A DNA stretch of 64,000 bases from a virus (taxonomy: Duplodnaviria; Caudoviricetes): IMG/VR virus record IMGVR_UViG_3300033076_000375, positions 1 through 64,000 of that record, one strand, 5' to 3'. The notes beneath the pieces were generated by a model. That model saw only the letters and a list, made by a program, of their open reading frames with translations, had not been told where the DNA came from and did not search any database. This document shows, piece after piece, positions 29,963 through 32,061 of this stretch. Every line of letters begins with the position of its first letter. The stretch's first letter is position 1. The translations under genes and the position numbers were made by a program.

Positions 29963-30196
29963 TTATATCTCAGTACCGTCGTCAGATAAAGTTTTTAGGT
30001 CAAACTTGAGAATCAAAAAGGCAACAATAGAATGGTCTTTTTCCATTTCTAATTGATACCCTATACCAACAGGGCTAGAGATACTATCACACATAAAGTA
30101 TCGTTTAACTGGCCAGTACTTGACGTTAGACTTCATCATGTAAGCCATAACGTCAGGTAGTAGTTTCTGAGGACAGAATAGTTTAACTGTACTCAT
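29963..30196 (-). CDS. Hypothetical protein (…AFLILKFD)
   Basis: Start reassigned to ATG 30196, overlapping the upstream stop region. Confidence 0.5.
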   Translation of the reverse strand: MSTVKLFCPQKLLPDVMAYMMKSNVKYWPVKRYFMCDSISSPVGIGYQLEMEKDHSIVAFLILKFDLKTLSDDGTEI

Positions 30197-30761
30197 AAGG
30201 TGTGTCGGGGTCTGAGTAGTTAGCGCGGATTCTATCATCTTTGACTTCATCGTAGTGTTTATAGTAATACTCATTTTCTTTTACGATCCTAAACGTATCA
30301 TACTTCAACATAGCGAATGTAACTTCCTCTTTCTTCAACATATCACAGATAATGTATGTTGTTGTACAAGGTGCTGAGATAGTTTTGAATGGACTATGCT
30401 TAAACTCGTTTCGTTGTAGTGCTTTGTGAATCTCAGAGCCCGGTCTAAACATAATACGGGTTATACCTAGCTTTTGATTGCGTAAGCGTATTTTATCAAA
30501 GATTGTTAATGCTGTCAAGGTTGCTTCGTTTTGTTCATTGATTGTTACCAATACATTTTTGAACTTGATTGAACCTTTGGTGTGTGAATTGTCTGGCGTT
30601 TCTTTAGTTGTCCAGGGTAGCTGTGCGTCTACATGATTCACATAATAAGTTTCTCCATGAAATTTTAAGACCCACATGGGAATGGTCTCGTCTTGTAAGT
30701 GTGCCTTGTTAAAGTGGAAGACTACCTCTTTACATGCAAATTCAATCTATTGTTGTGTCAT
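30183..30761 (-). CDS. Hypothetical late protein with in-frame amber (TAG) at codon 5: MTQQ*IEFACKEVVFHFNKAHLQDETIPMWVLK...
   Basis: TAAATA (30786-30791), AGGAG (30769-30773), ATG 30761 and TAG at 30747-30749; then 23 sense codons join the 30183..30677 ORF in frame. Confidence 0.7.
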
Positions 30762-30811
30762 TTTGTTTCTCCTGTAGTGACATTGTATTTATGGGGACGA
30801 TGCCCCATAAA

Positions 30812-31057
30812 TTATTTTGTTTTGTGTGGTTCACCGCTGATTGGATCAATCGTTGGATCCATCTTAGCAGCTTCTTCTGGTGTCATAAAGCGTGATGGCT
30901 CTTGATGAAACAACGTAGGGAAGAATGTCCACCCGAAACTCTTCCAATACTTGTAAATCAAGTTGTTGGCAATGATAGTAGCACTGAGGATAATCAAAAT
31001 CCCCAAAGCATATAAAAGAGTTCCTGCTAAGAAAACTGCTGCGTTGTCCATATCCAT
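30812..31057 (-). CDS. Small membrane protein
   Basis: N-terminal TM helix; TAATG-coupled to the rubredoxin gene. Confidence 0.65.
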   Translation of the reverse strand: MDMDNAAVFLAGTLLYALGILIILSATIIANNLIYKYWKSFGWTFFPTLFHQEPSRFMTPEEAAKMDPTIDPISGEPHKTK

Positions 31058-31185
31058 TAGATAGCCTCGTAATCTTCTTTACCTACACCACACTCTGGGC
31101 AAACGAACGTGTCTGGAAGTTCATCCCATTTACCTTCTGTTTGTTCGTCATGCACATGACCGCATACTACGCATACGTGTTCCAT
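31057..31185 (-). CDS. Rubredoxin (42 aa)
   Basis: Not in the ORF track: MEHVCVVCGHVHDEQTEGKWDELPDTFVCPECGVGKEDYEAI, with two CxxCG knuckles and the W..LP..F.CP.CG signature. Confidence 0.9.
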   Translation of the reverse strand: MEHVCVVCGHVHDEQTEGKWDELPDTFVCPECGVGKEDYEAI

Positions 31186-31186
31186 A

Positions 31187-31660
31187 TTATAGTCCTTTCA
31201 AAACTTCTTTATAACTATTAGCGTGACGTTCTTCAACTTTCTTCAAAGCCGCGAAACGCTTTTCAGCTTTCTTCAACACAGCCGCAAATTGTTCGGCGTG
31301 TTCTTTTGATTCTTGGATTTGACCAGTAATCTCTTTAGCTACTTCAATAGCACCGTCAACAATAGCTTGTGCTTGCATACCAGGATACATTTCAGTGTAC
31401 TCGTATGTCTCACCTTCGATTGCTTTCTCCAAGCATTCTTTTGTAGATGGTGTACCTAGAATCAATTCTAAGTGACCCCAAGCATGTTTCAATTCTTGGT
31501 CTGCTGTTTCTTCAAAGTGTTTAGCTACATCTTCGTGACCTTCTGCTCGTGCAATACGTGCAAAGTAACGATACTTGATGTGAGCCATTGATTCACCAGC
31601 CAATGCACCTTCTAAGTTTTGCATTGTTTGATGTTTCTGCGGTTGCTGTTGTTGCATCAT
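31187..31660 (-). CDS. rbr: Rubrerythrin (ferritin-like di-iron domain, no fused rubredoxin)
   Basis: NL..A.AGES.A...Y, E..HA, AIEGETYE..MYP and E.EHA motifs. Confidence 0.9.
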   Translation of the reverse strand: MMQQQQPQKHQTMQNLEGALAGESMAHIKYRYFARIARAEGHEDVAKHFEETADQELKHAWGHLELILGTPSTKECLEKAIEGETYEYTEMYPGMQAQAIVDGAIEVAKEITGQIQESKEHAEQFAAVLKKAEKRFAALKKVEERHANSYKEVLKGL

Positions 31661-32061
31661 TTTTTAGTTCCTTTAAGTGTTTTAAGACGGTCAAGAAGTG
31701 ATTCTGTTTTAGAGACTTCTTTCTTTACCTTCTTAGGTTTTTGGTGCGCTTGGCGGGAATCGAACCCGCTTCCTACCGGTTTAGAATCGGTTGCCCGGAC
31801 CATCTGGGCACCAAGCGCATCGTAATCTGTTAATCGATTTACCTCGTGATGTTTTACTATTATAACATCTTTAACAACATCTTCAATCTTAATGGGTAAA
31901 TCTAAATGCACAGTGATGTAGGGGCCGTCTACTGGATTTAGTTGCGTGTCATTACCCACAGTGCCAATAAAGGGGACGCCTTTATAGCGTCCTAGTATTC
32001 TATCACCAATCTGGTAAGTTGCTTTATAAGTTACTGTGTCAAAATATTCACTTAGGGTCAT
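31657..32061 (-). CDS. Hypothetical protein whose reading frame runs through the tRNA
   Basis: MTLSEYF... start at 32061; frame stays open across 31742-31818; its stop overlaps the rubrerythrin ATG (ATGA). Confidence 0.6.
   Translation of the reverse strand: MTLSEYFDTVTYKATYQIGDRILGRYKGVPFIGTVGNDTQLNPVDGPYITVHLDLPIKIEDVVKDVIIVKHHEVNRLTDYDALGAQMVRATDSKPVGSGFDSRQAHQKPKKVKKEVSKTESLLDRLKTLKGTKK
31742..31818 (-). tRNA. tRNA with CUA anticodon (putative amber suppressor), CCA encoded
   Basis: GCGCTTG-GT-GCCC AGATGGTCC GGGC-A-ACCGA TTCTAAA CCGGT-AGGAA-GCGGG TTCGATT CCCGC-CAAGCGC-A-CCA. Anticodon at 31782-31784. Atypical features are G8 and an A31-C39 mismatch. Confidence 0.82.

What the first reader, a model, noticed from the sequence alone, without database searches (positions are those of the whole stretch)
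30183..31818. Amber-gated gene paired with a phage-encoded CUA suppressor tRNA
Seen: a late box (TAAATA) and a strong RBS (AGGAG, 7 nt spacing) lead to ATG 30761, which reads ATG ACA CAA CAA TAG ATT GAA TTT... After the TAG, 23 more sense codons join the 164-aa ORF in frame, and the internal ATG at 30677 has no comparable RBS. About 1 kb away on the same strand is a 77-nt tRNA whose anticodon is CUA. Known: some phages recode TAG genome-wide (genetic code 15) and carry suppressor tRNAs. Here the other genes, including one of more than 4,960 codons, contain no TAG, so this is not wholesale recoding. Inference: a single N-terminal amber acts as a switch, so the full 192-aa protein is made only once the phage suppressor has accumulated.
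Basis: partly seen in the sequence, partly recalled or inferred. Interest (0 to 1): 0.92.

Follow-up and report, generated by a model that had tools for sequence, protein, structure and literature searches.

The report
Amber-gated phage gene with own tRNA
A large phage that otherwise uses the normal genetic code keeps one UAG stop as the fifth codon of one conserved gene and carries its own UAG-reading tRNA. More than 100 relatives, including a cultured Rhizobium phage, keep the same pairing, so it looks like a natural one-codon translational switch.

Summary
AGGAG, a 7-nt spacer and ATG 30761 (minus strand) lead to ACA CAA CAA TAG. Then 23 sense codons join the 164-aa ORF in frame. A canonical tRNA(CUA) lies 981 nt upstream on the same strand.

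- **Gate conservation:** 101 distinct related loci keep SD-ATG, 1-11 variable codons, then TAG (never TAA or TGA) before a conserved Ile-Glu.
- **Coding evidence:** the 23 codons after TAG vary mostly at third positions and form the first beta-strand of a confident fold. The protein therefore cannot start at MWVLK.
- **tRNA linkage:** 74 of 83 loci with at least 2.5 kb upstream hold a same-strand CUA tRNA, at a median of 302 nt. It usually has its own sigma70-type promoter.
- **No wholesale recoding:** this 186-kb record (about half a genome) and a complete 354-kb relative each have one convincing gate, and TAG rarely ends genes.
- **Not supported:** the "late box".
- **Unknown:** the protein's function and the inserted residue.

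New here: distant relatives lack the gate and start M-[I/V/L]-E. A cultured Rhizobium phage has an unannotated gated copy beside its annotated "tRNA-Pyl(cta)". Non-gated relatives sit in PTH2 operons.

This scan has already reported the same gene family on other genomes. I found no published description.

The parts
31859..31886 (-). sigma70-type promoter-like site (TTGAAG, 16-nt spacer, TG-TATAAT). Its -10 element ends about 40 nt upstream of the tRNA.
   Evidence: scores it 10/12 matches. Among relatives, 58% of 76 distinct CUA-tRNA upstream regions have a site with at least 10/12 matches, against 2.3% of random positions.
31742..31818 (-). tRNA with anticodon CUA (reads UAG): 77 nt with encoded CCA, G1-C72, C2-G71, G3-C70, A73 and no long variable arm.
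   Evidence: ARAGORN and Rfam RF00005 at 53.6 bits. In the family of 71 distinct sequences, the stems are kept through many compensatory changes.
30812..31660 (-). Three passenger genes between the tRNA and the gated gene in this lineage: rubrerythrin (31187-31660), rubredoxin (31057-31185) and an 81-aa membrane protein (30812-31057).
   Evidence: Pfam PF02915 at E 8e-16 and PF00301 at E 2e-9. These genes are present in only 8-12 of 98 related contexts, so they are not part of the conserved pair.
30787..30812 (.).
   Evidence: It has no T-run on the minus strand, so it is not an intrinsic terminator for this transcript.
30769..30773 (-). Shine-Dalgarno AGGAG, 7 nt before ATG 30761.
   Evidence: Every related locus has AGGAG, AAGGA or GGAG at the same spacing.
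30750..30761 (-). Variable leader: ATG ACA CAA CAA.
   Evidence: Leader length runs from 2 to 12 codons including the ATG, and is 2 in 58 of 98 contexts. Its sequence is not conserved.
30747..30749 (-). The in-frame amber codon (TAG), the gate.
   Evidence: TAG in 79/79 loci of the first scan, 77/78 of the second and 101 distinct contexts. It is never TAA or TGA. The next base is A in 97 of 98.
30183..30746 (-). Body of the gated protein: 187 codons plus the TAA stop. It has a beta-rich N-domain (residues 1-80) and an alpha/beta C-domain (about residues 82-175).
   Evidence: The AF2 model has pLDDT 86, and 96 for the N-domain modelled alone. Strand 1 is residues 2-12, directly after the TAG. 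Entropy over the first 23 codons is 0.34, 0.20 and 0.99 at codon positions 1, 2 and 3.
33340..33764 (-). Phage-borne two-piece (permuted) tmRNA with tag ANDEIFALAA. It is a frequent neighbour of the pair, and a functional link is not shown.
   Evidence: Rfam RF01850 at 132 bits and RF04321 at 124 bits. A permuted tmRNA lies within a few kb in roughly a third of related loci.

Best explanation
The gene is translated from the SD-ATG at 30761. Ribosomes meet UAG at codon 5. RF1 then ends translation after a 4-residue peptide, or the phage's tRNA(CUA) inserts an amino acid and the full 192-residue protein is made. Protein output therefore follows suppression efficiency, that is charged phage tRNA against RF1.

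The tRNA is a normal elongator tRNA made by the host sigma70 RNA polymerase. In most relatives it is probably made from the same transcript as the gated mRNA, so the pair forms a self-contained cassette.

Shown here:
- the anatomy of the gate;
- strict conservation of TAG;
- coding constraint and fold across the gate;
- linkage with the tRNA;
- absence of general recoding.

Inferred:
- that the tRNA is charged and suppresses;
- which residue it inserts (by E. coli identity rules, U35 plus A73 favour Lys or Gln; from knowledge, not tested);
- what the gate is for.

My preferred purpose is dose-matching or sensing: a protein whose job is tied to UAG suppression, termination or ribosome rescue is made in proportion to suppression.
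For: 1. The gate is conserved. SD-ATG, 1-11 variable codons and then TAG occur in 101 distinct contexts at 48-93% protein identity. TAA and TGA never occur there, although TAA ends 78% of genes. Selection is therefore on UAG itself.

2. The stretch after TAG is coding. Third-position entropy is 0.99, against 0.34 and 0.20 at positions 1 and 2. It forms beta-strand 1 of a domain modelled at pLDDT 96. That domain also exists alone and fused to other domains.

3. Distant relatives without a gate start M-[I/V/L]-E at exactly this point. The leader plus TAG is therefore an add-on in front of the ancestral first residue.

4. Database proteins that show 'Q' at this position are TAG read as Q by the gene caller.

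5. The tRNA is linked. A same-strand CUA tRNA lies in 74 of 83 loci with at least 2.5 kb upstream, never only on the opposite strand, at a median of 302 nt. The complete 354-kb relative has it 780 nt upstream, where ARAGORN missed it.

6. The tRNA is under selection as a tRNA. All stems are kept through compensatory changes, and G1C2G3/A73 is near-invariant.

7. sigma70-type promoters are enriched upstream of the tRNAs: 58% against 2.3% in controls.

8. There is only one gate of this type in the 186 kb held and one convincing gate in the 354-kb relative. TAG ends 2/157 and 10/339 genes. The two TAG-ended genes here reach another stop within 8-10 codons.

9. Cultured Rhizobium phage RHph_I1_18 has an unannotated 82-aa gated copy ending 12 nt before its annotated tRNA(cta).
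Against: - There is no expression, aminoacylation or peptide evidence, and reads and RNA runs could not be examined.
- The protein's function is unknown: no Pfam or PHROG hit, and only weak fold matches at Z no higher than 5.
- Nine of 83 loci show no CUA tRNA within the sequence held.
- One relative (L145) has CUA tRNAs but an ungated copy of this gene, so the tRNA can have other targets.
- If this were the tRNA's only target, the pair alone would explain neither part's benefit.
- G000 is only about 49% complete, so 'only one gate' holds for half a genome.
Confidence: 0.8

Rival explanations
1. Mini-ORF with re-initiation. ATG-x-TAG is a real 2-12-codon leader ORF. After termination the ribosome restarts at the adjacent AUU/AUC/AUA (Ile) codon, so the protein starts one codon after the stop and no suppression is needed. 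The tRNA(CUA) serves something else.
For: The stop is always directly followed by an AUH codon: ATT 71, ATC 5, ATA 3. AUU can act as a weak bacterial start (from knowledge, not tested). Ungated relatives start with Met exactly one residue before Glu.
Against: Re-initiation would work equally with TAA or TGA, yet 101 of 101 distinct gated contexts keep TAG in genomes where TAA dominates. Synonymous drift among ATT, ATC and ATA fits an Ile read in elongation better than a start codon. This rival leaves the tight same-strand linkage with a UAG-reading tRNA unexplained.
Confidence: 0.07
2. RF1 sensor that does not depend on the phage tRNA. UAG is kept because it is the only stop read by RF1 alone. 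Read-through by host near-cognate tRNAs reports low RF1 activity, and the neighbouring tRNA is incidental or only boosts the signal.
For: Strict TAG specificity fits RF1 specificity as well as it fits CUA decoding. An early in-frame stop recalls prfB autoregulation (from knowledge, not tested).
Against: A cognate CUA tRNA co-occurs in 89% of well-covered loci and always on the same strand. A cognate suppressor would dominate near-cognate read-through. No release-factor gene was found in the 186 kb held.
Confidence: 0.06
3. UAG encodes a special, functionally required residue (pyrrolysine-like or another non-standard amino acid) supplied by a dedicated tRNA.
For: ARAGORN and GenBank label the tRNA 'tRNA-Pyl'. 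The position is invariant.
Against: That label only reflects the anticodon. The tRNA has a canonical cloverleaf, GG in the D-loop and a GTTCGA T-loop, and fits the general tRNA model. The codon sits in a variable, unstructured leader, and ungated relatives simply lack that position. No synthetase gene was noticed beside the pair.
Confidence: 0.02
4. Broken gene or assembly error. The real product is the 164-aa ORF from ATG 30677.
For: Standard gene callers report 164-165-aa products.
Against: TAG is present in more than 100 independent assemblies. There is purifying selection upstream of ATG 30677. ATG 30677 has no SD. The truncated form would lack strand 1 of the N-domain.
Confidence: 0.01

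Closest known systems
Stop-codon-recoded phages with phage suppressor tRNAs (TAG read as Gln, 'code 15': crAss-like, Lak, Garnet and others; Borges et al., bioRxiv 10.1101/2021.08.26.457843; Peters et al., PMC9523058)
   Same: Both have a phage-encoded tRNA(CUA), depletion of TAG as a terminator, and an in-frame TAG proposed to control when or whether a phage protein is made.
   Different: In those phages tens to hundreds of genes, mostly late and lysis genes, carry in-frame TAGs. Here there is one codon in one gene, always just behind the start and physically linked to the tRNA. That state is stable across a very wide clade, so it is not a passing step towards recoding. That paper mentions a standard-code phage with a suppressor tRNA only as a possible precursor state.
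prfB (RF2) autoregulation through an early in-frame UGA
   Same: An early in-frame stop makes output depend on the balance between termination and an alternative decoding event. A short, cheap abortive product is made when termination wins.
   Different: prfB needs a +1 frameshift and senses its own product. Here decoding stays in frame and uses a dedicated tRNA, and the protein is not a release factor (no Pfam hit).
bldA tRNA-Leu(UAA) and TTA-codon genes in Streptomyces
   Same: A single dedicated tRNA gene gates translation of the few genes that carry its codon.
   Different: bldA reads a rare sense codon in a cellular developmental programme. Here a stop codon is read, in a virus, and the tRNA and its target lie side by side.
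Laboratory and natural amber suppressors (supE, supF and others) with amber mutants of phages
   Same: The mechanism is the same: a CUA-anticodon tRNA competes with RF1, and suppression is favoured by A after UAG (from knowledge; here A follows in 97 of 98).
   Different: Those are mutant tRNAs rescuing mutant genes. Here both parts are wild type, conserved and co-inherited.

Membership tests
Bacterial-type elongator tRNA (Rfam RF00005) | Cloverleaf that fits the covariance model above the gathering score | tested here: met
   53.6 bits against a cut-off of 29, matching the full-length model 1-71.
Bacterial-type elongator tRNA (Rfam RF00005) | Stems maintained by compensatory substitutions among homologues | tested here: met
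   In 71 distinct CUA tRNAs, 17 of the 18 predicted pairs are standard in 96-100% of sequences and one D-stem pair in 72%. Most pairs show several pair types.
tRNA-Pyl (the label given by ARAGORN and GenBank) | Atypical Pyl-tRNA architecture: no canonical D-loop GG or T-loop, and a very short variable loop | tested here: not met
   Canonical GG in the D-loop, a GGTTCGATTCC T-arm and a 5-nt variable region, with a good fit to the general tRNA model. The label follows from the anticodon alone.
tRNA-Pyl (the label given by ARAGORN and GenBank) | pylS and pylBCD genes present | not tested
   I ran no search for these genes. None was noticed among the neighbours.
Code-15 (TAG-recoded) phage | Many genes with in-frame TAG | tested here: not met
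   One gate in the 186 kb held and one convincing gate in a complete 354-kb relative.
Code-15 (TAG-recoded) phage | Phage-encoded CUA suppressor tRNA | tested here: met
Code-15 (TAG-recoded) phage | TAG depleted as a terminator | tested here: met
   TAG ends 2 of 157 genes here and 10 of 339 in the relative. This uses my own crude gene set.
Code-15 (TAG-recoded) phage | Accessory code-change genes (release factor, aaRS) | tested here: inconclusive
   No RF-1 domain in G000, but the record is only about 49% complete. aaRS genes were not searched.
prfB-type autoregulatory recoding | The gated product is the factor that reads the stop, and a +1 frameshift is required | tested here: not met
   The frame is continuous across the TAG. 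The protein has no RF or other Pfam match.
PTH2 peptidyl-tRNA hydrolase (PF01981), for the gated protein itself | Match to the PTH2 profile | tested here: not met
   No Pfam hit at E up to 0.01. PTH2 is only a neighbour of ungated relatives in Atu_ph07 and Phosso.

The most novel reading that the evidence does not exclude
The tRNA(CUA) and its gated gene form a self-contained sensor or feedback circuit for UAG decoding in the infected cell. The protein acts on translation termination, peptidyl-tRNA or ribosome rescue, and is produced in proportion to how well UAG is being overridden. This would explain why its relatives sit in PTH2 operons, why a second gene is gated instead in L145, and why a phage tmRNA is a frequent neighbour. 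It would give the 'orphan' suppressor tRNAs of many standard-code large phages a defined role.
Probability: 0.25. Interest if true: 0.9.

Novelty: new variant of a known kind. Interest (0 to 1): 0.76.

Why it matters
Suppressor tRNAs are often found in large phages that show no recoding, and their purpose is unclear. Here such a tRNA has a concrete, conserved and physically linked target: one UAG a few codons into one gene. That is a natural minimal tRNA-operated translational switch, and it is stable across hundreds of kilobases of genome divergence.

Three consequences follow:
- **Annotation:** it points to systematic errors. Genes are called 164 aa long, read with 'Q' at the gate, or not called at all, as in RHph_I1_18. 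ARAGORN also misses some of these tRNAs.
- **A testable system:** a cultured phage and host are available.
- **Engineering:** the tRNA and short leader could serve genetic-code engineering.

Tried and rejected
- **Protein function:** Pfam and PHROGs gave nothing. A profile against PDB sequences gave nothing below E 0.8. Foldseek against PDB gave no match at E up to 0.001. VIA-align wide gave only weak ferredoxin-like (ACT/RRM-type) matches for the C-domain (Z no higher than 5.0) and OB-like matches for the N-domain (Z no higher than 3.7). ESM Atlas by features gave nothing and by shape only viral hypothetical proteins.
- **tRNA identity:** a profile of the CUA family scored a phage tRNA-Trp(CCA) best (31 bits). 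The similarity is mostly in the anticodon arm, and the discriminator differs (A73 against G73), so I draw no assignment.
- **T4-type late promoter:** rejected.
- **Host hints from genome contigs:** only three short MAG contigs matched, probably binning noise.
- **Named phage relatives by DNA:** no match.
- **Strict DNA pattern for the tRNA:** it missed real copies, so I replaced it with an nhmmer profile.
- **PTH2 and RF-1 domains:** none in G000. PTH2 was found in only 1 of 5 complete relatives, so PTH2 is not a constant partner.
- **Second gated gene in L145:** no Pfam hit and not BLASTP-similar to PTH2.
- **Conserved neighbourhood:** apart from the tRNA, only a 257-aa zinc-ribbon protein recurs, in 37 of 98 contexts.
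Full report
**What is in the window**

On the minus strand, AGGAG (30773-30769) is followed by a 7-nt spacer and ATG 30761. The reading continues ACA CAA CAA TAG (30749-30747). After the TAG come 23 sense codons (IEFACKEVVFHFNKAHLQDETIP), which run in frame into the 164-aa ORF that table 11 starts at ATG 30677 and ends at 30183. ATG 30677 has no Shine-Dalgarno site by my scan.

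A 77-nt tRNA with anticodon CUA lies at 31742-31818 on the same strand, 981 nt upstream. ARAGORN finds it and Rfam scores it at 53.6 bits against a cut-off of 29. A sigma70-type site (TTGAAG, 16-nt spacer, TG-TATAAT) ends 40 nt upstream of it.

Three genes lie between the tRNA and the gated gene: rubrerythrin, rubredoxin and a small membrane protein. A two-piece tmRNA lies 1.5 kb further upstream.

The window is the first 64 kb of a 186,222-bp virus record at 39.8% GC. CheckV rates the record only about 49% complete.

**Is it more than chance?**

The 164-aa part has more than 1,000 relatives. Two scans of IMG/VR returned 80 loci each.

In 79 of the 79 first-scan loci that hold upstream sequence, and in 77 of 78 second-scan loci, the in-frame stop just before the conserved Ile-Glu is TAG. 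After removing duplicates there are 101 distinct contexts. Each reads SD, ATG, 1-11 non-conserved codons, then TAG. TAG is most often codon 3 (58 of 98 contexts). It is never TAA or TGA.

TAA ends 122 of 157 genes in my crude gene set for this genome, and TAG only 2. A neutral stop would have drifted to TAA many times at this depth of divergence (48-93% protein identity). Selection is therefore on UAG itself.

Database proteins of 189-193 aa that show Q at this place are TAG read as Q by the gene caller ('with_TAG=Q'). The 179-aa forms simply start at a GTG Val codon.

**The stretch after the TAG is part of the protein**

Across 95 distinct sequences, the 23 codons between TAG and Met-24 have mean entropy 0.34, 0.20 and 0.99 at codon positions 1, 2 and 3.

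AlphaFold2 models the 187 residues after the TAG at pLDDT 86, and the first 80 residues alone at pLDDT 96. Residues 2-12 form the first strand of a beta-rich domain. A product starting at MWVLK would lack that strand.

The same 80-residue domain occurs elsewhere in two other forms:
- as a stand-alone protein of about 85 aa;
- as the C-terminal half of proteins of 170-200 aa.

More distant full-length relatives (35-50% identity) have no gate. They start M-[I/V/L]-E directly. P0123 translates by table 11, and L145 reads AAGGAG...ATG ATC GAA. The gate is therefore a short leader plus UAG placed in front of the ancestral first residue, in one large clade.

**The tRNA is the linked partner**

ARAGORN found a same-strand CUA tRNA in 65 of 98 contexts and none on the opposite strand. 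A profile built from these tRNAs recovered copies that ARAGORN misses. One of these is in a complete 354-kb genome, 780 nt upstream of its gate.

With the profile, 74 of 83 contexts with at least 2.5 kb of upstream sequence hold the tRNA. Of the 79 contexts with a tRNA, 69 have it upstream within 3 kb, and the median distance to the TAG is 302 nt.

The 71 distinct tRNAs keep every stem through compensatory changes. They share G1-C72, C2-G71, G3-C70, A73, an encoded CCA and the loop YU-CUA-AA. This is a functional elongator tRNA, not a Pyl tRNA.

I could not assign its amino acid. By E. coli identity rules, U35 with A73 favours Lys or Gln (from knowledge, not tested). The site lies in a variable leader, so the residue probably does not matter.

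A sigma70-type promoter with at least 10 of 12 matches lies within 80 nt upstream of 58% of 76 distinct tRNAs, against 2.3% of random positions. The -10 element usually ends 5-10 nt before tRNA base 1. The tRNA is thus made by the host polymerase. In most relatives it is probably on the same transcript as the gated ORF.

**Not general recoding**

No pair of sizeable ORF segments joined by TAG lies in a coding context. A scan of every predicted gene for SD-start, up to 12 codons, a stop, then an ORF finds only this gene with TAG.

The two genes that end in TAG reach another stop within 8-10 codons. The complete 354-kb relative likewise has one convincing gate, in the same family, and TAG ends 10 of its 339 genes. 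No RF-1 domain was found in the part of the genome held.

**What is not supported**

The 'late box' is CATAAATA inside a hairpin arm. TATAAATA occurs 7 times in the genome against 25 expected, and in only 8 of 92 relatives within 80 nt upstream of the gated gene. Given the promoter data, the gate is unlikely to be a late-gene timer driven by a separately expressed tRNA.

**Function of the protein**

The function is unknown. There is no Pfam, PHROG or PDB-sequence match. Structural matches are weak: ferredoxin-like for the C-domain (Z no higher than 5) and OB-like for the N-domain (Z no higher than 3.7).

Context gives three leads:

1. In the cultured jumbo phages Atu_ph07 and Phosso, an ungated protein carries the domain at its C-terminus. 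It is the last gene of a tightly overlapping three-gene operon that begins with PTH2, a peptidyl-tRNA hydrolase (E 5e-16 and 2e-16).
2. In L145 the family gene is ungated. The gene two places upstream reads ATG GCA TAG ATT and has no recognisable family. Two CUA tRNAs lie 8 kb away. An 87-aa helical ORF, coupled by an ATGA overlap to the family gene, matches the N-terminal domain of the fused forms.
3. A phage tmRNA is a frequent neighbour.

PTH2 is not a constant partner: it was found in 1 of 5 complete relatives. These leads fit a role around termination, peptidyl-tRNA or ribosome rescue, but they do not prove one.

**A cultured example**

Rhizobium phage RHph_I1_18 (MN988519.1) has an unannotated 82-aa gene containing only the N-domain. 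It reads SD-ATG AGT GAG TTC ATG TAG AAC GAA... and ends 12 nt before the tRNA that GenBank annotates as 'tRNA-Pyl(cta)'. This gives an experimental system.

**Mechanism and rivals**

| Explanation | Confidence |
|---|---|
| Programmed amber suppression by the phage tRNA in competition with RF1, so protein output tracks suppression efficiency | 0.8 |
| Mini-ORF with re-initiation at the adjacent AUH codon | 0.07 |
| RF1 sensor independent of the phage tRNA | 0.06 |
| Special residue at UAG | 0.02 |
| Broken gene or assembly artefact | 0.01 |

The re-initiation rival explains neither the TAG specificity nor the tRNA linkage.

**Comparison with what is known**

The closest described systems are the TAG-recoded 'code 15' phages, where in-frame stops are proposed to regulate late and lysis genes (10.1101/2021.08.26.457843; PMC9523058). 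This case shares the tRNA and the TAG depletion, but it has one codon in one gene, linked to the tRNA and evolutionarily stable.

In logic it resembles prfB autoregulation and bldA/TTA gating, without belonging to either.

Two full-text searches found no description of such a single-gene gate.

The scan itself has reported the same family on several other genomes. My analysis agrees with those notes and adds:
- the ungated ancestors;
- the domain architecture;
- the promoter statistics;
- the tRNAs that ARAGORN misses;
- the PTH2-operon context;
- the alternative gated gene in L145;
- the cultured Rhizobium phage.

**Verdict**

The feature is real and strongly conserved, and it is a new variant of a known kind. 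Its purpose and the function of the protein remain open.

Noticed in passing
window 33340-33764 (-): Phage-borne two-piece (permuted) tmRNA of the betaproteobacterial type, with tag peptide ANDEIFALAA. Similar tmRNAs with varied tags, some 26-30 residues long, lie near the tRNA and gate pair in many related loci.
   Followed up: partly
window 31057-31660 (-): Rubrerythrin (157 aa) and rubredoxin (42 aa) genes are inserted between the suppressor tRNA and the gated gene. They look like auxiliary oxidative-stress genes and are present in only about 8 of 98 related contexts.
   Followed up: partly
window 31657-32091 (-): A 144-aa open frame runs straight through the tRNA gene and ends overlapping the rubrerythrin start. 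Its upstream part has homologues in 14 related loci. I did not resolve whether the 3' part is translated.
   Followed up: no
window 49091-64000 (-): A giant open frame of at least 4,969 codons runs off the window end. I did not examine it.
   Followed up: no
L188 2477-2725 (MN988519.1 11003-11248, minus strand): Cultured Rhizobium phage RHph_I1_18 has an unannotated 82-aa amber-gated gene (TAG at codon 6) that ends 12 nt before its annotated 'tRNA-Pyl(cta)'.
   Followed up: yes
L145 8874-9257, plus tRNAs at 960-1034 and 1359-1433: In one relative the family gene is ungated. A different upstream gene is gated instead (ATG GCA TAG ATT..., 122 codons after the TAG, no known family), and there are two CUA tRNAs. 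The tRNA can therefore serve other targets.
   Followed up: partly
L189 1549-2728 (Atu_ph07); L190 2064-3243 (Phosso): In both phages three genes overlap in an operon: PTH2, a protein of about 110 aa of unknown function, and a protein with a helical domain followed by the N-domain of this family. No TAG is involved.
   Followed up: partly
L102 9138-9212 (G003 341596-341670) and others (L035, L080, L099, L003, L091, L089): ARAGORN misses about a tenth of these CUA tRNAs. A profile search recovers them, so surveys of suppressor tRNAs in phages may undercount.
   Followed up: yes
window 16616-17794 (+) and 37740-38969 (+): One protein combines ferrochelatase-like and 2OG-Fe(II) oxygenase matches (PHROG E 8e-72 and 7e-38). 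A radical-SAM protein is also present. Both are probably auxiliary metabolic genes.
   Followed up: no
window 29110-29883 (-): A 257-aa protein with a C-terminal zinc ribbon is the only other gene that recurs near the pair. It appears in 37 of 98 contexts, on the same strand but at a variable position.
   Followed up: partly
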